Below, piece after piece: positions 1,325 to 19,905 of a stretch of DNA of 20,000 bases (within the stretch, counting starts at the first letter, position 1; each line of letters starts with the position of its first letter). The position numbers and the translations under genes are program-made. The notes under the pieces are model-generated. The model saw nothing but the letters and a program-made list of their open reading frames with translations. It was not told the origin of the DNA and did no database searches. This stretch comes from Chromera velia (lineage: Eukaryota). Location: assembly GCA_018398765.1 (NCBI GenBank), contig JAHBMJ010000245.1:112112-132111 (forward strand), in the 5' to 3' direction.

Positions 1325-3583
1325 TCAGGCAAGGACCAACGAAAAGCAGTTTAGCTCGGCCACTCCTTGTCGGAGTTGCTTTCGCCCACTCCCCGAGAGA
1401 CCGTCAAGAGCCGCCTTGTGCAGTTCAAAATCCAAAGGAACGCCTCGTTCCTCAACCTTTCCCCCTATTTTCAAAATCACGTCAACCAGATCATTAGTGA
1501 TAATTCTCATACAGACGACGAAGGACACCCTTACAAGAGACAACATACCGCCCTCTTGCATGGACTTAGAGAGTGCTTTCACGGTGTCCGATGTAACTTG
1601 TGTCTCTGCAAAAATGAGCGTTTTCAGACCTTTCATACCCCCCAGTGCCTCCATCAACATCACTGCCCCCTTGTCCGTCAAGCCGGTTCCCGACAGGTCG
1701 ACGTGCTGCACTGCACCCCCTCTGCCCTCACCTTCCACATTCCCAATTGCCTTCTGCTCTCCCTTCTGTATGGAGAGGAAGTGTCTGAACAGACCGCAAA
1801 GACTTGCCGCGTCTTCGTCTGAGAACTGTGCGCGACCCGCGAAGGAGACGCGAAGCATGCTGCGAGCACTGCGGGAGATGAACTGCTTATACAGAGACTT
1901 CACAGTCGCTGCGTCTGCCCCTTCTTTGAATTTCTTTTTCTTTAAAAAAGAGTTGAACTGCTCCGGAGAGAAGGCGACCTGCACGGGCTGCTGACTCAGG
2001 GAGAGAGCAGCCGAGTGACTTTCGTCGTTTGTCTCACATTCATTTTGCGGAGTGGGCAACCTGGTGGGCAACTCGCAAATCAAACGGCTAGGCTTGAAAC
2101 ATGTCACGCAGGTCTCGAGGGTAGGCCACCCCCTTTCTCCGTATGGGAGCGGATTGGGAGACTTTGGAGGGACTCCTGTGGACCGGAAGACGCGTGTGTG
2201 GGGACTGCTGTAGAGGAGGTCCATTTGTTGGAGGGCTTGTTGGAAGGAGGAGTACTGCTCCCCGTCTCGGGGCCACTGGTAAAGGGACATGAAGTCCCAA
2301 AAGACGAACACTCGCTCTGCATTCTCCCCCTCTGCCCACCACTGAAGATTTAGGGCCTCTACTAGGAGGCGCAGGTGGAACATCTCGGGATCGGGGTGAG
2401 TCTGGGAGAGCCAGCTGAAGGATAGGCAGACTACGGTGAATCCACCTATCTGAGGAAAGCCGGTCTTTGCACTCTCTGCTGCGGCCTGCAGAGTATTCTG
2501 TGCGGCTGCCTCTTCCATTCCGAGCTCTTTCAGCACCCCCAGCACATCTTGCCGTCGGGGAACCGGGCGTCCCTTCTGAAGAAGAAGGCGGAGGACTGGC
2601 AAGGGCCAGAGAGCAATGGCGCCTTGGACAATGAGCTCTTGGATCAGCTTCCATGATTCTGTCTGTGCTGCCATCCAATCAACGGAGGGCTCATCAAGAA
2701 GAGAGGGAGTCATGCCTGCAAGCAAATCCCGAATCTTCAGATGCCGCATGGAGGCTGCCATCTTGACTGCTGTGCTGCCGTCTGGAGCGGTGATGGCGGG
2801 GTCTGCACCGTGCTGCAGGAGCATGATGACCACATCCAGATACCCGTTCTGAGCTGCATACATGAGGGCAGTACAACCCATGATGTTTTTCTCATCCATC
2901 TGTGCCTTCTCTCGGACGAGAAGGCTGATCACCTCCGGGTGGCCATCGTGTGCAGCCAGCATCAGAGAATTGTACCCTCCCCAGGTTTTCACATTCACCC
3001 CTGCCTTCTCTCTCAACAACACGGCCATTACATCGGCGTGCCCCTTGCTAGAGGCCATCATCAGAGCTGTGAAGCCACCGTTATTTTTCCGATGGACATC
3101 CGCTCTGTGTCTCACTAACAGACACACCACATCAGTGTGTCCGTTCTGAGCTGCCAACATCAGGGAGGTGCTTCCATCTTTTCTTTTCTGGTTGACATCA
3201 ACTTTCTCTCGCAGCAGCAGAGCTACCACTTCTGGGTGTCCGTGTTGGGCTGCCATGATGAGAGCGGTGGTGCCACCCTTGGTGAGGCCCAGCTTTGCCT
3301 TCTTTTGTAGCAGAAATTCCACAACCACACAGTGCCCCTTCTCTGCAGCGAGCATCAGGGCCGTGAACCCGCCTCCTGCAAGTAGAAAAGCGGGAGGGAT
3401 GAGCGGAGAGAAATGGATGCACAGTCATACCACGGGAAAACGTGTGGCAAAAGCCACTACGGAGGAGGAAATGTAGATCCCTTGATGTGCCATACAATCG
3501 GACAGACCGAGAGACAGATAGATGGACACATAAACGCAAAGAGAAACAGACAGACAGGTAGATACACAGACAGAGAGACAGAC

Positions 3584-3620
<37 letters not shown>

Positions 3621-4789
3621 CAGACAGGCAGACAGACAGACAGACAGACACTCAGACACTCAGACACTCAGACAGACAGAGACACAGACACAGACACACA
3701 GACACACACACAGACACACAGACACACAGACACAGAGACAGACACAGAGACAGACACAGACACAGAGACAGACACAGAGACAGACACAGAGACAGACACA
3801 GAGACAGACACAGAGACAGACACAGAGACAGACACAGAGACACACAGACACACAGACACACAGACACACAGACGCACAGACGCACAGACACACAGACACA
3901 CAGACACAGACACATACACAGACACAGACACACACAGAGACAGAGACATAGACAGACACAGACACAGACACACAGTCGTCAGACAAGAGGTCAACACATA
4001 TGCTGGAAGAAAGCACAGAGCGGTATGGCTGCGCAAGAAACAAAAGCAAAAAAGCGGGGGCGGCAGAAAGGCAGGGAGAGGTAAAGGGGGGGAAAGAAAG
4101 GAAGAGACCAGATGAAGAAAAGGAAAAAGGCACCAGTACAATGGAAATTGAAGAGTCAAAGAAGGAAATTCGAAGGAGACGAAGAAAGAAAGGAAGGAAC
4201 AAGAGATGGACGCTGGAGCCGGGAAGGGAGGAAGGAGGAAGTGTAGAAATAAAAGGGGGACAGAAAAAAAGAACCAAAACCCTGTCAAAGAAAAGAGCTG
4301 TCTGAAAAAACAAAACAGAGGACAGACCATCTCGAGCATTGAGAATTCCGGGACACTGCTGCAGTGCTTTCTTCAGTTCTCCAACCGCACTTCTCTCGAC
4401 GGCCTCAAACCATTCTCTGAAAGCAAATACACCGACACAGGGGAAGGTGCGTTGTGAAAACTACGGAGACTCTTCGAAAGGAAGCCTGAAACTGAAAAGG
4501 AGTGTCAATGGGCCGGAGCTTACTAAACCTTTCTACCGCTAAATGAAGAGAAAAAAGTAGAAGGTGAAGACTTGTCCTTTATGGACTTGCATACCCCGCA
4601 CGCAGGCAAGTCTACGCAGTCATGCAGCTGAGGCAGACGTGAATCTGCATGAATTGGCTCTAGCAATACATATTTGACGATGTCCTGCTTCGCTGCGTTT
4701 GCGTGCACCAAAAAGAAGTCGGATACTGGCGACTTCTTGAACTGCATGGATGTGCCTTACCGTTTTGGCTTGGACCCACTACATCCCAT
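1325..4789 (-). CDS. Spliced gene, about 722 aa: N-acylation motif, ankyrin repeats, HET/TIR-like domain and C-terminal LRRs. Exons are 4761-4789, 4328-4416 and 1325-3375.
   Basis: The exons join in frame through GT-AG sites (CG|gtaagg...tttcag|A and G|gtctgt...ttgcag|GA). This gives [54 protein letters not shown]... There are six full and one partial GxTALMxAAxxGH ankyrin repeats. HET-like motifs are LSFSW (2411-2425), FWDFMSLYQ (~2276-2302), MDLLYS and RGWPTLE (2114-2134). RI-like LRRs ([26 protein letters not shown]) lie at ~1500-1860. Confidence 0.85.
3545..3975. repeat. Compound microsatellite (ACAG/AC/ACACAG-based) in intron 2 of the ankyrin gene
   Basis: About 430 bp of AC/AG-rich tandem units, including the 12-mer gacacagagaca repeated several times. 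Confidence 0.95.
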
Positions 4790-5636
4790 CCTTCAAAATT
4801 TCCTTCTTGTACAGAAGGACACACGGGGACCAATCGAGTGCAGAGGAGAGAGTTCGGGCTGAAAGAGACCCTGCCGAAGCAGATTACGTGCACACAGAAG
4901 GAGAGCAAAGAAGACTTCAAAGCAACATCTGGGTACAAGAGACAAAGAGCTCTGCGGTGAGAAAGCGGCCAATCTAGTGTCACTTTGAACCTCTCTCTAC
5001 CAGTATGCAAGTGTGCCTTGAAGAAGCCTGCATGGGACGCATTCAAGAATCAGGATTCCGTTTTTGGTTAATTTTCTGGACGTACGTCTGGAAAATAACG
5101 AAGGTCAGACACTTTTCCTTGCATAATTCAATGCAAGGCAAGGGCCGGGAATTAAGTGCCTCGCGGCTTTCCGGGACCGCGCGCGTGAAACCAATTTTCG
5201 CTTTCCGGGCCATTCGCATGCAAGGCCCCCGATCGATCAGTCTGATCCTCTTTTCGATCGATCTGCTTGCAGTGGCGTACAGAAACTTGGGTCTGGATGC
5301 CAGACATCACGTACGTCGTCCGATCTACTGCTTTAGTCGTCGACACTCGAAGAGCATAGCATTGTGACTACACTCTGAGCTTCATCGCAGGTCTACCCAG
5401 AAGGAGCGTTTCCGCAACTTGCGGGCGTGGAATCTGTTTTTGTCTCCTTTGGCGCTTTCCACTTTTTTGTCTTTGACAGGTACCGTTTGTTGCCACTGCC
5501 ACTTGTTACTCCGGACTGCCTCAAATTTTCTCGTCTATTTATTAGCCTTTGGGCTTGTGCTGACCCCGTGGCGGTAGGCTGGTGCTTTATCTTTCCTTCC
5601 TGACGGCCGTCTTTCTTCCGAAGGAAAGCAGAAAAG
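4790..5636. promoter_or_regulatory. Intergenic region between divergent genes, probably a bidirectional promoter plus 5' UTRs
   Basis: About 850 bp between head-to-head start codons. A CpG-rich core at ~5140-5345 has palindromes GATCGATC (x2), ACGTACGT (x2) and CGCGCG. Confidence 0.45.
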
Positions 5637-8600
5637 ATGGAGCCAACGAAGGAGGAAGTGGAGACCAGACCCCAAGCACCATTGGAGGTGGCACAGTTCC
5701 TTCTACCCAGGCCTATGCCTTTCCAACAGAACATCCAAGGCCACCTTGTGGGCTACAATTTGTACACCCAACAGTCGGTCGCTGCTTTCCCTCTCCGATT
5801 TTCACTCCAGTCTCTTCGTACATTCTTTGCGTTCCTTTTTTCCTCATCAATTTGGGACAGACCATACCCACCTCGGCATTCAGATGAGAATCATCCCTCT
5901 CAAAGATCATCCCCGTATTTCTTCTGTCTTCTTGCAGATCTGCAGGAGCATGGAGGCAGAACATCGTCTATCAGCAGCCCGAGGCTGTGGGACCTTCACC
6001 ACATCCGCCACACCAACCCCCTCCTCACCCGGCTTTCTTCCCTTCCCCCTGGCCCCCTACTCATCACCATTTCATGCCACCCGCATTCACTTCCTTCACA
6101 GCCAGACTGAGCGAACCACCTCAGCCTCCTGTCTTTCCGGGACCACCGCACTCCCATTTCACCGCCACACATCCAGTCCCAACCCCCGTCCCTTCAGCAG
6201 CTAGGCATCGCGACCAAACGGCAACAGCCGCACCGACACCTGCACGACAGCCGGAACCAAGACAGCGGGAGGGCTATCTCGATCAGATACCCACCCCTGC
6301 TGCTCTACAAGGTATCGGTGAGATGGCAAGTCCGACAGGTGTGTCTCGTATGGCAAGTCCCCAAAGGTTCCGAGGCGCCTCCCCCCCTCCCATGGCCCGC
6401 TCCCGGCCCGTCCCTGTCCGATCCGAGACCGGGACCGCTCACACGGGACCGCTCCCACAGAGGGCCTCTATCCGTGTCACTCCAGCGCCAGGGGGGGGAA
6501 TTGCGGGAGCCCTTTCCCCCCGTATGCACCCAGGAGTGCCCCCCTTCGCCCAAGCCCTCCCCCTCCTTCCCCCTCCCGGAGACGGCAGACGCCCAGCACA
6601 GGCGTCTCCCCAACTGGGACCCACCCCCCCTCAGATGCCCCCTCCCCCCTTTGCACAACCCCGTTCCCACTTCCCCCCCCCCCTCATGGGTGGTATGCCA
6701 GACAGACGGACGGTCGCCTTCATGCCCCACGAAGGCCGGGGTCTTCTGCCCCCTCCCATGGTCCTGGGCACCCACACACCCCCACTGCCCCGTCCCATGG
6801 GAGGGCCCCCTGCGCCTCTTGCCGGGGCCCCTCCCCCAGGTGCATGGACCCCCATGATGCACGTCCCCCCCGTGCAGCAACCCGTACCTGCCGGGGACGT
6901 CCAACCCGAAGACGCTTCTCCTTTGCACGTGAAGGTCAAGACGGAGGAAGGGCCTGAGTCTGCCGTTGTGCAAAGAAAGGCACTGGTCGGAAGGAAGAAG
7001 GGGAAGCCTTCGAAAGACGAGGTACAACGTGCGAGAGACCAGGAGAAGCCGACTGCTGCGACAGAGGCCGACACACAGGATGATGGAGGTGCAGTGAGAG
7101 GAGGAGGGCCTGTGCCTGAGGCCGGACCCGTGCAGACCTCCAGGTCCCCTCGGAGGTCAAGGGGGCAGAGTGAGAAAGGAAAGGGGGTGGAGAAACCCAA
7201 AAGATCATCCAATCGGTCACCTAGAGTCCACAGGGAGACACAGGGAGTCCAGACAGCAATTGCACGTCTCCTCTCTCCCCGTCTCGACGAACCACGAAGG
7301 CCCACTCCCCCCCGTCGCCCCCCCCACGCCAACCTCTCTTCCCACCCTCCCCTCGAGACTCCCACCAGAGCCGGAGTCCTCCCGGTCCCCCTATCTCCCG
7401 ACGGTATCGTCAGAGGTCCAGAGCACATCGATGCAGCCCAAGTCGCTGCAAGAGATGCTCGTCACCTCCATCAGCAACAGCAGGCACAGCAACAGAGATC
7501 AGGAGAACCCCCCCTGACCCCCTCCCTAGTGCATCCAGGAGTCACAGGCACCCCCCACGTGCCGAAAGCGACCCCCTCCATCGAGCCAAAAAGTGCGGGC
7601 GAGTCTCTCATGACCTCGCCTCTTGTACCGGAGAGGGCTGTACAAGGGAGGGGGGGGGAGAGGGAGAGAGTGATGCTGGATGAGGAAGAGGATGAAGACG
7701 AAGACGAGGAAGAGGATGAGGAAGATGAGGAGGGGGAGGATGAGAGCAGTGGGGAGGAGGACGAAGAAGAGGAAGAAGAGTCGGAGGAGGAGGAAGAAGA
7801 GGAATATGAGGAGGGGCAAACCACAAGAAGAAATGAGGAGGCCACAGGGGACGCAGATGCAGAGGATGATGTCCAAGCTCCAGCCACAGAAGAAGTGATT
7901 GACCCCCGTGACCAGAGTCCAGCTGCTGCCGCTGCGGCGGCTGCCGGTGCAACGAGGAATAACGTGGAAGTGTCTTCCCCCCTCTTTGACAACCGTCAGC
8001 ATCAGAGCAGTCTCCTGAGTCTCCAGGCAGAATTGATCCAGGCAGAGGGGGTTCTTGACGAGGAAGAGGAAGAAGAAAGGCGCAAAGAACAGAACAGCAA
8101 CAGCAGCGAAAAATCCGAGTCTTCCCCCTCCATTGTCACAGGAGACACACCCATCCACGCCTCGGGCGATGCAGCTGGAGAGAAGGATGCAGAGGCAACG
8201 CCCCCTTCCCCCCCCCGTATTCTCTACTCTGACTACACCACACCGCAAGCAGAAGCTCAATCCTTTTCCCCGCCTTCGTTCGCAGCCGCTGCAGCAGCAG
8301 GGACGGTAGCAGATCCTTCGGTCGAATCAGCTAGAGAGTCTGAGGAGGTCGAAGCGGAAGAGGGGGGTGAGGAGGAGGAGAAGGAGGGCCCCGCACAGGA
8401 CAGGGACGCCCCCGCCGTTCCGGTACCTCCAGAGATGAGCATGGGGACCCGACAGGGCTCCACTCTCTCGGACGCTGCCGCCTGGGTGTTCATTGACCCC
8501 CAGGAGCTCCATACCCTCTCGCCGTCTCCTGCTAAACCGACGGAGACAGAGACGGGCTCTGCGACAGCAGCTGCGGCATCGGGAGAAGATCAGGAGGAAG

Positions 8601-8653
8601 AGGAAGGCGACAAAGAGGTGCGTGCGCGCAGGAGTCGTACTTGCATACATGTG

Positions 8654-8722
<69 letters not shown>

Positions 8723-9636
8723 GTGATGCTTAATCAGTCTGACTCTGTTTTAAAAGAACGAAGAGAAGGGTGTGCAGAGAACACAGGACAGCGAAAGACG
8801 AAGAGGAAGAATAAACGGAGGAATCTGTGCTGCCCAGGATCTTACGAACACAGATGAGATGCGCTGTTTTCTGTGTGTCTGCCTTTCTTTCTTCCTTTCT
8901 TCCTTCCTTCCTTTTTCTCTTTTTCTGTTTCTCGCTCTCTTTCTGTCTCTGTTCGCGGCGCCTCTCTCCCTGCCTTTGTGTCTCTCTGTGTGTCTCTCTG
9001 TATCCATGATGTATGTATGTGCGTATGTATGGGCTTGTCTTTGTTCTGTCTGTCTCGACCTTTCTTCTTCTATCTGTGGCTGCAGGAGGTCCCGTCTCCT
9101 CAGAGAGAGCCCGCCCCTTCAGCAGCAGGTGAGGGAGACGCCCCGAAGGAAACTGCACCAGCAGCAGCAGCAGCAGCAACGGCGACGCGAGGGGGACACG
9201 TTGCGGACAGATACCTCCACCACCTGAGTCAAAACAAGTCCAAGGTCAGTCAGCAAATGCGTCCCTTTCTCCCTTCTTCTATCACGCCTGTCGGTCGGTT
9301 TGCCTGTCTGTCTGCTGTCTGCTTGGACGGACACAATAGCGGGAAGAGAGAAAGAGGGAACGCAGAGTCCCCCCTTCGTTCCAGCCCGAAGTTCCCACTT
9401 GGCGTTTGACCACCGGATGCGATGCCGCCTTTGTCTGAACGATTGCGTTTCTCCTACCAGCCCCTTTCTGTCTGCCTGTCTGCCTTTCATCTGCTCATTT
9501 GTCAAATAACCTGCCTGCTTGTCTTTTTACACGTCTGCAGTCTTCACTGCAAGGTGTGGGCTCTCCGAAAAGTCCTTCCCCGCTCGAGAAGCTGGAGGTT
9601 CCAGAGGGAGCAGAGGAGGGACCGGGGGGGGACTGA
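5637..9636 (+). CDS. Spliced gene, about 1023 aa, for a Pro-rich, acidic, low-complexity protein of unknown function. Exons are 5637-5773, 5938-8617, 9086-9244 and 9541-9636.
   Basis: A 2.7-kb open frame ends at GAG|gtgcgt. The downstream exons are phase-consistent (ctgcag|GAGGTC...AAG|gtcagt and ctgcag|TCTTCA...GAC TGA). The exon 1 donor (CA|gtcggt) is less certain. The protein has poly-Pro, many SP/TP sites, a long E/D tract and poly-Ala, with no recognisable folded domain. Confidence 0.75.
8656..8720. repeat. (CT)n(GT)n intronic microsatellite
   Basis: Seen directly, just after the donor at 8618. Confidence 0.95.
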
Positions 9637-16178: not shown

Positions 16179-16930
16179 TAGGCAATCCGAATCATGAAGA
16201 GTCATCCAATACAAATTCGTATGCACAGATGCTTTCCGGGGCCGCACACAGTAGAATTCCGTGAGCGTGTCGATCCTTCCGTCTATACATGCATTCATCT
16301 CTCAGTTAAGCTTCCACACACCTGCTTTGACCGTGAAGTTGGAACGTTTATAGATCTTTGCATGAAATAGCTCAGCAGCAGAGACCCTGCCTGTGCGTAA
16401 TGCAGGGCGGGCGGTGCAGATCTTGTCGAGCGGATACAACAGGTAAGGAAAACAAGTAACAGTATACGTCTGGCACACCCTTTCTGTGCTTTGAGTGAAT
16501 GCATTGCTACATGACAACATGTCGTCTTCTGGAGAGTGGACATCTTGAAAATTGGATACTTGATTGAAGATCCCCTATATTTTGCAAAGATTACCCGACA
16601 GGTTTGAGGTCAAAATACGGCTGTTTTGGTTATTCTGGTAGTAAAAGCATGTGTAGAAAGAAGCAGAGGGGAGGAAGAATACAATGCAGATTTCACTTTT
16701 TTGCCTTCTTCTCTGTATGTGCAACCCCCTTCCTTGCAGAGCTCTCTTTTCTCTGACTGCCTGCCTGGTGACTGCAAGCGGGTCCGCCATTGGAGTGCTT
16801 GTACTGAGACCACCATAATAGAAAAGAATAGAGACAAAGTCCACAGCCAAGATGCCCTTCAAAAATGGGGGTCATTTTTTTTGTTAGTGCAGCTGCCATA
16901 CATTTGACTCTTCATTAGTTGGATTACCTA
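16179..16930. mobile_element. Non-autonomous DNA transposon (MITE-like), copy 1
   Basis: The left end taggcaatccgaatcatgaagagtca matches the reverse complement of the right end (taggtaatccaactaatgaagagtca) at 22/26 positions. The outer TA is a probable TSD. It is about 96% identical to 17442-18192. Confidence 0.85.
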
Positions 16931-17441: not shown

Positions 17442-18192
17442 TAGGCAATCCGAATCATGAAGAGTCATCCAATACAAATTCGTATGCACAGGTGCTTTCC
17501 GGGGCCGCACACAGTAGAATTCCGTGAGCGTGTCGATCCCTCCGTCTATACATGCATTCATCTGTCAGTTAAGCTTCCACACACCTGCTTTGACCGTGAA
17601 GCCGGAACGTTTATAGATCTTTGCATGAAACAGCTCAGCAGCAGAGACCCTGCCTGTGCGTAATGCAGGGCGGGCAGTGTAGATCCTGTCGAGCGGATGC
17701 AACAGGTAAGGAAAACAAGTAACAGTATACGTCTGGCACACCCTTTCTATGCTTTGTGTGAATGTATTGCTACATGACAACATATCGTCATCTAGAGAGT
17801 GGACATCTTAAAAATTGGATACTTGATTGAAGATTCCCTATATTTTGCAAAGATTACCCGACAGGTTTGAGGTCAAAATACGGCTATTTTGGTTACTCTA
17901 GTAGCAAAAGCATGTGTAGAAAGAAGCAGAGGGGAGGAAGAATGCAATGCAGATTTCACTTTTTTGCCTTCTTCTCTGTATGTGCAACCCCCTTCCTTGC
18001 AGAGCTTTCTTTTCTCTGACTGCCTGCCTGGTGACTGCAAGCGGGTCCGCCATTGGAGTGCTTGTACTGAGACCACCATAATAGAAAAGAATAGAGACAA
18101 AGTCCACAGCCAGATACCCTTCAAAAATGGGGGTCATTTTTTTTGCTAGTGCAGCTGCCATACATTTGACTCTTTATTAGTTGGATTACCTA
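17442..18192. mobile_element. Non-autonomous DNA transposon (MITE-like), copy 2, same orientation
   Basis: It has the same TIRs and TA ends, and homology to copy 1 stops exactly at the TIRs. By eye it differs from copy 1 by 27 substitutions and one 1-bp indel. Confidence 0.85.
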
Positions 18193-18745: not shown

Positions 18746-19905
18746 TTATCGTTTTCTGAAGTCGCAGTCACTTTTATGACCATCGGAATCCAGATTTGAG
18801 GTGTATTGATGAAGGAAAGCTGCATAGTCACGGACTCGCCCTTGTGTGCAAGTCTATCCCCTTGTCCGCATACTACTCCTCACCCCCCCCCTAACCGACA
18901 ATCGGACCTCCTTTGCTACTGCAATGATAGAGGAGAACATAGATCTCTCCGGCACATCTATGCCCGCTTTGTCCTCTTGCTTCTTCTCAACATGAAGGTC
19001 TGTAAGAGGCTCCCCCTCTTCCTTCTTTTCAACACCGCCGCCTTCATTCTCTTCAAAATCCCCCTCGCTACCTGAAAAGTCGGACTCCGACATCTCGTCT
19101 GACTCATCAACAAGACCATCATCACCCTCACCTCTTTCCTTCTTTCCTTCCTCACCTCTCTCCTTCTCTCCTTCCTCACCTCTCTCCTTCTCTCCTTCCT
19201 CACCTCTCTCTTTTTCTCCTTCCTCACCTCTCTCCTTCTCTCCTTCCTCAACTCTCTCCTTCTCCCCTTTCTCACGTCTCTCCTTCTCTCCTTCTTCAAC
19301 TCTCTCCTTCTCTTCTTCCTCACGTCTCTCCTTCTCTCCTTCCTCAACTCTCTCCTTCTCTCCTTCCTCACGTCTCTCCTTCTCTCCTTCCTCAGCTCTC
19401 TCTTTCTCTCCCTCTTCACGTCTTTCCTTCTCTCCTTCCTCACCTCTCTCCTGCTCGCCCGGAGGAGCGTCAAGCAGGCGCACCCGGTGAAGCCTTTCAA
19501 AGACTTCCTCCAAAACGATTCGGCAGGTGGATTTAAGGATAGAACCGAGACGCCCCCCTTTTGTCTTTGTTCTCGCTTCCTGCAGAGCGGAAGTGAAAGA
19601 CGCAAGGTCTGCAGCGGACTTAAAGGTTCGTCGATTCCAGTGCTCTTATGATCGGGATGTTGGATGTTTAAACTGCAGGAAAACCATATCGGCCCCCTCT
19701 CCTCCATCATACAGGACCTCGAAGCAGTCTATCTCACTGTCTTTTGCTTGTCCCTCTTTATCCTGCCAGTACCAATGCATTGGTGCATACATAACCATCG
19801 TGCGCTTCATCCAATACGAGAGGAAAGCAACAGCAACTTTCGGGAGCTAGTAGCTGTTTGTGGTCATCGCCAGAAAGAGAAGTTCAAGCGCTTGACGGCT
19901 TTTGA
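18746..19905 (-). pseudogene. Terminal exon of a decayed gene continuing past the window edge, with a possible OTU-like C-terminal half and charged 8-aa repeats
   Basis: An acceptor (tg)n-cag| lies at 19905. One frame reads KSRQALELLFLAMTTNSY*LPKVAVAFLSYW...DMVFLQFKHPTSRS*EHWNRR...MRTRG*TCTQGRVRDYAAF...RKR*. In-frame stops are at 19847-49 (TAG), 19646-48 (TAA) and 18854-56 (TAG), with no frameshift. Confidence 0.6.
19124..19450 (-). repeat. 24-bp coding minisatellite, 13 copies plus a partial copy of ERxEEGEK
   Basis: Visible in the ORF 18854-19513 translation. Alternation of R with A/V suggests a 48-bp higher-order unit. Confidence 0.9.

What the first reader, a model, noticed from the sequence alone, without database searches (positions are those of the whole stretch)
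1325..4789. Ankyrin-HET/TIR-like-LRR protein: candidate innate immune or cell-death receptor
Seen: the central domain has the ordered motifs [25 protein letters not shown] and [10 protein letters not shown], flanked by ankyrin repeats and LRRs. Established: the fungal HET domain (PF06985) has the pattern ALSYxW / WIDxxCIxQ / MxxIY / RxWxxQE. It is a cell-death effector remotely related to TIR domains and in fungal NLRs usually lies N-terminal to a NACHT or NB-ARC domain. Inference: here it sits between two repeat sensor modules with no P-loop NTPase, an unusual architecture. The Glu at 2114-2116 may be functionally important for TIR-like NAD-processing chemistry.
Basis: partly seen in the sequence, partly recalled or inferred. 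Interest (0 to 1): 0.78.

Follow-up and report, generated by a model that had tools for sequence, protein, structure and literature searches.

The report
Membrane-anchored HET/TIR-like LRR protein family
A spliced algal gene encodes ankyrin repeats, a domain predicted to fold like fungal HET and TIR domains, and leucine-rich repeats behind a likely lipid anchor; it belongs to a large family with no Pfam model that likely signals by cutting NAD+, possibly in defence.

Summary
The gene is real. Three minus-strand exons (4789-4761, 4416-4328, 3375-1325) give a 722-aa protein, and both introns are spliced out in public contigs. Order: an MGC acylation-like start missed by the database gene call, 6-7 ankyrin repeats, a central domain (aa 268-545), then 4-5 degenerate RI-type LRRs. 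There is no P-loop. The organism is most likely Chromera velia. The central domain has 1,263 relatives at 50% clustering; Glu460 is kept in 145 of 146. The model is confident (pLDDT 92). Its core matches fungal HET models (TM 0.62-0.63, under the Atlas bar), and TIR/SEFIR/NDT/SLOG-type structures fill the top 26 rows (best Z 7.3). Pfam HET and TIR are not hit, and profile comparison with bacterial TIRs is at chance. It is therefore a distant HET/TIR-like domain, not a PF06985 member by score. The LRR follows the domain in 92 of 118 relatives, so it is a fixed partner; the ankyrins are the swappable part. NAD+ cleavage is likely; immunity or cell death is untested, and EF-hand fusions suggest a signalling rival.

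The parts
4761..4789 (-). Exon 1; start MGCSGSK, likely N-myristoylation (Gly2) and S-acylation (Cys3) signal
   Evidence: spliced contigs; in-frame stop upstream; MGC start in 19 of 141 Met-starting relatives
4417..4760 (-). Intron 1 (344 nt, GT..AG)
   Evidence: skipped in contigs of 4 of 4 runs
4328..4416 (-). Exon 2; likely N-cap of the ankyrin stack
   Evidence: N-cap role is inference
3376..4327 (-). Intron 2 (952 nt, microsatellite-rich, GT..AG)
   Evidence: skipped in contigs of 2 of 4 runs; sequence
1325..3375 (-). Exon 3, to the stop codon
   Evidence: open frame; covered in pieces by contigs
2708..3373 (-). Ankyrin repeats, aa 41-262 (6 Pfam stretches, 7 TAL-type motifs)
1859..2692 (-). 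Central HET/TIR-like domain, aa 268-545, with an N-terminal RRQ subdomain and a C-terminal F-T-N-G-x-D-type motif
   Evidence: (pLDDT 91.9, pTM 0.90)
2072..2437 (-). TIR-like core, aa 353-474: four strands with helices between; S358, W361, D368, D400, Q406, R409, W456 and E460 near-invariant
2114..2116 (-). Glu460, predicted catalytic residue
   Evidence: 145 of 146 aligned relatives; in the helix after the third strand; register inferred from range ends
1913..1930 (-). aa 522-527, FKEGAD; the family has T/S and mostly N at 523-524, so this copy deviates while keeping D527
   Evidence: no difference listed at these bases in the covering contigs
1328..1858 (-). 4-5 degenerate ribonuclease-inhibitor-type LRRs, aa 546-722
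   Evidence: the family profile hits RI/NLRP LRR structures

Best explanation
This is a spliced gene for a likely membrane-anchored signalling enzyme whose central domain is predicted to fold like HET/TIR domains and likely cleaves NAD+ with Glu460, is probably held off by its own LRRs, and would be switched on through the ankyrin repeats in a likely defence or cell-death pathway. Shown: gene structure and splicing, domain order, absence of a P-loop, family size, near-invariant polar residues, LRR linkage, expansion in Chromera. Predicted: the fold and the place of Glu460. Inferred: lipid anchoring through Gly2/Cys3; partner or non-self binding by the ankyrins; release of the LRR lid and clustering on the membrane in place of the NTPase-driven oligomer of NLRs; NAD+ cleavage to ADPR or cyclic ADPR; defence as the outcome.
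For: Fold: the top 26 of 50 VIA rows for the core are titled or recalled as TIR, SEFIR, nucleoside deoxyribosyltransferase (NDT)-like or SLOG; best is the SpbK TIR NADase, Z 7.3, rmsd 3.6, 99 aligned; first unrelated row Z 5.2. The Atlas aligns the core to the PF06985 part of two fungal clusters, TM 0.63 and 0.62. Foldseek's best is an NDT, probability 0.89, TM 0.48, E 0.098. Catalysis: E460 145/146, W456 148/148, D368 147/147, D400 145/147, D527 141/143. Catalytic TIRs carry a Glu on helix alphaC (10.64898/2026.04.20.719644, passages), which is where E460 lies. In three rows whose range stops near the fourth strand, counting back puts E460 within 1-2 residues of SpbK E192, NDT E98 and ThsB E85. 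HET keeps a functionally important Glu (PMC9153377, PMC9815663, passages). Anchor: MGC in 19 of 141 starts against 0.24 expected from composition. LRR partner: 92 of 118, reversed controls 0 of 118. Defence-like evolution: 20 named Chromera velia paralogues, a 30-leaf clade with support 0.92, and varied repeat number and order.
Against: No Pfam HET or TIR hit for this domain, and at most 1 of 93 members at E<=5. hhalign to 29 bacterial TIR_2 domains: local score 14.8, inside the shuffled range (max 20.2); both local and global modes pair the wrong strands. All Z-scores are under 8, which the tool says may mean only a common arrangement; Atlas HET scores are under its bar; Foldseek has no match at E<=0.001. 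NDTs score as well as TIRs, so the substrate is open. The register check is indirect and rests on three chosen rows. No enzyme activity is reported for HET domains in the passages read (PMC10890737, PMC10197012). This copy has K523/E524 where the family has T/N. EF-hands occur in 7 of 115 relatives scanned, plus one cNMP-gated channel, one kinesin and one Tudor fusion, which fits general signalling. The MGC expectation has no proteome-wide control, and the sequences are related.
Confidence: 0.4

Rival explanations
1. The same enzyme chemistry, but as an everyday second-messenger source at membranes (for example cADPR-type control of Ca2+), not immunity. The N-terminal modules set location or input.
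For: EF-hands in 7 of 115 relatives, one cNMP-gated ion channel, kinesin, MORN and Tudor fusions; frequent acylation-like starts; transcripts of this gene and of apparent paralogues are present in all 4 runs laid.
Against: Lineage-specific expansion with shuffled repeats is more typical of recognition genes (general knowledge). The nearest named fold relatives, fungal HET domains, are cell-death domains (PMC4986451, passages). The culture conditions of the runs are unknown.
Confidence: 0.25
2. This particular copy is a weakened or non-catalytic paralogue that acts as an adaptor or decoy, recruiting active family members through domain-domain contact.
For: K523/E524 replace T/N in a motif that is T or S in 127 of 144 relatives and in all 25 Chromera-clade rows printed. 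PMC4986451 (passages) proposed HET as an adaptor. Some TIRs with the Glu show no activity.
Against: 21 of the 24 family positions tabulated match the paralogue pattern, and E460, W456, D368, D400 and D527 are intact. None of 8 amino-acid differences in a second allele touches them.
Confidence: 0.2
3. The domain is an N-glycosidase of the same superfamily with another substrate (a nucleoside, nucleotide or ADP-ribosylated target), as in NDT, DNPH1 or MilB.
For: NDT-type chains tie with TIRs in VIA (Z 6.8 against 7.3) and lead Foldseek. The domain has extra invariant acids and an extra subdomain that TIRs lack.
Against: hhalign to 17 NDTs is also at chance. A multi-domain repeat architecture and gene expansion fit signalling better than salvage metabolism (inference).
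Confidence: 0.15

Closest known systems
Fungal HET domain (PF06985), e.g. Podospora HET-E, HET-D, HET-R and the NTPase-free het-B protein BH
   Same: Predicted core fold (TM 0.62-0.63; about 0.5 over 186-198 residues for the whole domain), a conserved Glu, large variable gene families, and occurrence without an NTPase (PMC10890737, PMC10197012, passages).
   Different: No Pfam score; invariant HPDP and QxPR loops and an RRQ subdomain; a fixed C-terminal LRR (no LRRs were found in fungal NLRs, PMC4986451 abstract passage); an acylation-like start; found in alveolates and haptophytes; no cell-death data.
Catalytic TIR domains (SpbK, ThsB, SARM1; the Chlamydomonas 3'cADPR TIR)
   Same: Strand and helix order to the fourth strand, a Glu on the third helix with an aromatic residue four before it (W456/E460; SpbK Y188/E192), Z 6.1-7.3.
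   Different: No detectable sequence or profile similarity; the domain is about twice the size; activity and oligomer state are unknown.
Nucleoside 2'-deoxyribosyltransferase / DNPH1 / MilB N-glycosidases
   Same: Same superfamily fold, Z up to 6.8, with a catalytic Glu at a matching position by inferred register.
   Different: Mostly small stand-alone metabolic enzymes (general knowledge); no repeats; no profile match.
NLR immune receptors (effector - NACHT/NB-ARC - repeats)
   Same: An effector-like domain with RI-type LRRs and ankyrins; one Atlas cluster is automatically named 'Protein nlrc3'.
   Different: No NTPase in this protein; Walker A-like strings in only 3 of 150 relatives, one of them a kinesin. 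The 'NLRC3' label likely comes from the LRR alone.

Membership tests
HET (PF06985) | Score above the Pfam gathering threshold (22.5 bits) | tested here: not met
   0 families for the domain at E<=10; at most 1 of 93 members at E<=5
HET (PF06985) | Same three-dimensional core | tested here: inconclusive
   TM 0.63 and 0.62 to the PF06985 part of two fungal clusters, both predicted models, scores under the Atlas bar
HET (PF06985) | Profile-profile or residue-level match of the four motifs | not testable with these tools
HET (PF06985) | Induces cell death when expressed | not testable with these tools
   Needs an experiment
Catalytic TIR | TIR-type alpha/beta topology | tested here: inconclusive
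   Consistent enrichment in the top 26 rows, but best Z 7.3 (rmsd 3.6, 99 aligned), under 8
Catalytic TIR | Conserved Glu on helix alphaC, within 3 A of ThsB E85 after superposition | tested here: inconclusive
Catalytic TIR | Sequence or profile similarity to TIR/TIR_2 | tested here: not met
Catalytic TIR | NAD+ cleavage on self-association | not testable with these tools
   Needs an assay
NLR/STAND | Central NACHT or NB-ARC P-loop NTPase | tested here: not met
   No Pfam hit, no Walker A, and no unassigned stretch long enough between the domains
NLR/STAND | C-terminal superstructure repeats | tested here: met
   RI-type LRRs
NDT-like N-glycosidases (PF05014) | Profile similarity | tested here: not met
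   hhalign score 12.1 against 11.7 for the reversed control, 17 sequences

The most novel reading that the evidence does not exclude
Marine microeukaryotes (chromerids, colpodellids, dinoflagellates, haptophytes) carry a large, unannotated class of lipid-anchored, NTPase-free immune receptors built on a fixed HET/TIR-like NADase-plus-LRR module with swappable sensor domains. Membrane clustering replaces the NLR NTPase, and the family is a missing link that would show HET domains to be NAD+-processing enzymes.
Probability: 0.3. Interest if true: 0.85.

Novelty: new variant of a known kind. Interest (0 to 1): 0.62.

Why it matters
How HET domains kill is stated to be unknown (PMC10890737, passage), and little is known of cell-autonomous defence in algae and free-living relatives of apicomplexans (my own knowledge). 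A family of more than 1,200 clusters with an invariant catalytic-looking site, invisible to Pfam and in part auto-labelled 'NLRC3', gives many testable candidates. Surveys of eukaryotic TIRs that start from known TIR profiles would likely miss it.

Tried and rejected
Single-sequence search of solved structures with the domain: 2 hits, both E>0.6. Family profiles against PDB sequences: the 60 rows shown of 430 and of 91 are all LRR proteins or match in the LRR part. PADLOC and NCBIfam with 28 members: only single weak unrelated hits. Foldseek with the whole domain: no TIR among the 50 or so rows listed, best E 0.29. Homodimer prediction with NAD: no answer, score 0.01, not evidence either way. 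One-pattern scans for prokaryotic and viral relatives: 0 of 33 and 0 of 121 candidates confirmed; tblastn of phages: none. These are weak and do not show absence. The metagenome scan gave 20 of 79 candidates, mostly short contigs that were not studied further. The attempt to collect HET sequences from prokaryote genomes found none (three genomes were not scored), so no HET profile comparison was made. Long proteins other than P0015 may match through the LRR only, so a helicase fusion (P0161) is not claimed. No whole genome is held, so paralogues were counted from protein databases only. No holder was on record as RNA; splicing is the evidence for transcription. Look-ups of earlier findings returned nothing. 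Literature: ten searches; no listing showed a description of this domain-LRR family. The library lacks most subscription papers, and the supplementary TIR tables of bioRxiv 10.64898/2026.04.20.719644 were not seen and could list members.

Full report
Gene. The window is eukaryotic DNA with microsatellite-rich introns. A 699-codon minus-strand frame covers 1325-3424. Taking the first exon as 4789-4761 and scanning splice sites for the other two gave two in-frame models that differ by one codon; the 722-aa one has exons 4789-4761, 4416-4328 and 3375-1325. Contigs of four public runs (one study, RNA status guessed by the tool) skip 4417-4760 in 4 of 4 runs and 3376-4327 in 2 of 4, which fixes that model. 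The contigs differ from the window at 16 coding codons, 8 synonymous and 8 not, none at a near-invariant residue. The database's own product (676 aa) starts at Met47 and lacks the MGC start. All ten other hits of the first search are Chromera velia proteins at 45-56% identity, so the window is most likely from that species.

Anatomy. Residues 41-262 are ankyrin repeats. Residues 546-722 are degenerate RI-type LRRs: below the Pfam cut-off but supported by profile comparison, shuffles and solved-structure hits. There is no Walker A motif. Residues 268-545 match no Pfam family.

Family. phmmer with the domain found 1,263 representatives at E<=0.001 and 233 at 1e-10; the best 150 were studied. In them W361, D368 and W456 are invariant where aligned, and E460 is kept in 145 of 146, D400 in 145 of 147 and D527 in 141 of 143. 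Atlas neighbours are eukaryotic clusters, most often haptophyte, on few labelled members. Twenty named Chromera paralogues were seen. A tree of 144 core sequences (7 gappy rows left out; FastTree, midpoint root) puts the query in a 30-leaf clade with support 0.92 that holds 19 of them and 10 not looked up. An LRR follows the domain in 92 of 118 non-training members with enough sequence, against 0 of 118 reversed. Other partners vary: ankyrins before or after, EF-hands in 7 of 115 scanned, and single cNMP-channel, kinesin, Tudor, F5/8 and YEATS fusions (only the best five families per protein are shown). No NACHT or NB-ARC appeared in those tables. 37 of 141 Met-starting members begin MG and 19 begin MGC, against 9.6 and 0.24 expected from composition; there was no proteome control.

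Fold. AlphaFold2 gives a confident domain (pLDDT 91.9, pTM 0.90) and core (92.5, 0.85), with the strand-helix order of TIR and E460 in the helix after the third strand. Foldseek finds nothing at E<=0.001; for the core its best rows are an NDT (probability 0.89) and TIR-APAZ. VIA against 48,161 chains ranks TIR, SEFIR, NDT-like and SLOG chains in the first 26 rows, best SpbK at Z 7.3, first unrelated row at Z 5.2. The family labels of 7m5h, 1t1j, 2nx2, 4ohr and 7un8 are recalled. The whole domain gives the same set at Z 4-5. The Atlas aligns the core to the HET part of two fungal clusters at TM 0.63 and 0.62, below its naming bar. Counting back from range ends, E460 is 17 from the end where SpbK E192 is 16, and 18 where NDT E98 is 17; it is 22 where ThsB E85 is 24. 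Residue numbers come from PMC12847820, PMC9570332 and the 2026 preprint (passages); that 1f8x and 6lhy are those enzymes is recalled. This check is indirect, uses three chosen rows, and does not work for rows whose ranges run further. Against: hhalign with 29 TIR_2 and 17 NDT domains scores 14.8 and 12.1 in local mode, inside the block-shuffled range for TIR (max 20.2); a response-regulator control scores 9.0. Global mode gives 13.6 against a shuffled maximum of 10.4, but with probability 1.7% and the wrong strands paired. At most 1 of 93 members hits Pfam HET or TIR.

Mechanism. The likeliest reading is a membrane-tethered enzyme of the TIR/NDT superfamily, closest to fungal HET. Gly2/Cys3 would anchor it, the ankyrins would bind a partner or non-self cue, the constant LRR would gate the enzyme, and clustering would allow E460-dependent NAD+ cleavage, as oligomerisation does for SpbK (PMC12847820, passages). 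The fold is predicted; anchoring, gating, substrate and role are inferred. I put the fold assignment near 0.85, Glu-dependent catalysis in the family near 0.7, and the whole defence reading for this copy at 0.4. Rivals are non-immune second-messenger signalling (0.25), an inactive adaptor copy given K523/E524 (0.2), and another nucleotide substrate (0.15).

Relation to the literature. PMC4986451 (passages) found HET homologues in stramenopiles, haptophytes, choanoflagellates, green algae and bryophytes, linked HET to TIR, and found no LRRs in fungal NLRs; alveolates are not named in that passage. PMC10197012 and PMC10890737 (passages) show that HET often occurs without an NTPase and that its chemistry is unknown, so the lack of a P-loop is not itself new. 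PMC12881547, PMC9153377 and PMC9815663 were seen as passages. The 2026 preprint (passages and section 9) shows an algal TIR making 3'cADPR, in a clade with dinoflagellate and haptophyte TIRs; whether it covers this family could not be checked, as its tables were not seen. Ten searches turned up no description of an acylated HET-like-plus-LRR family.

Verdict. It works like a HET/TIR signalling domain by predicted fold and conserved Glu, but it is not a PF06985, TIR or NLR member by the tests run. New variant of a known kind; interest 0.62.

Noticed in passing
window 16179-16930 and 17442-18192: A direct duplication of about 750 bp at 96-97% identity, spacing 1262-1263; frames over it have no Pfam match.
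   Followed up: partly
window 19032-19507: A 24-nt tandem array inside a minus-strand frame encoding Glu/Arg/Lys-rich repeats (18854-19645); only a weak Pfam hit below cut-off.
   Followed up: partly
window 5604-8857 (+): A divergently oriented gene with a long Pro-rich and Glu-rich frame; no Pfam match.
   Followed up: partly
window 2184-2221 and 2283-2314: Other long contigs match only the two most conserved motif codon runs and then diverge in all 4 runs, which suggests expressed paralogues.
   Followed up: no
P0036, P0037, P0043, P0064, P0073: The domain is fused to a cNMP-gated ion channel, kinesin, YEATS plus EF-hand, Tudor, and F5/8 plus EF-hand; single gene calls, which could be mis-joined models.
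   Followed up: no
P0002 versus window 4328-4789: The public gene call omits the two exons with the MGC start, so acylation starts in this family are probably undercounted.
   Followed up: yes
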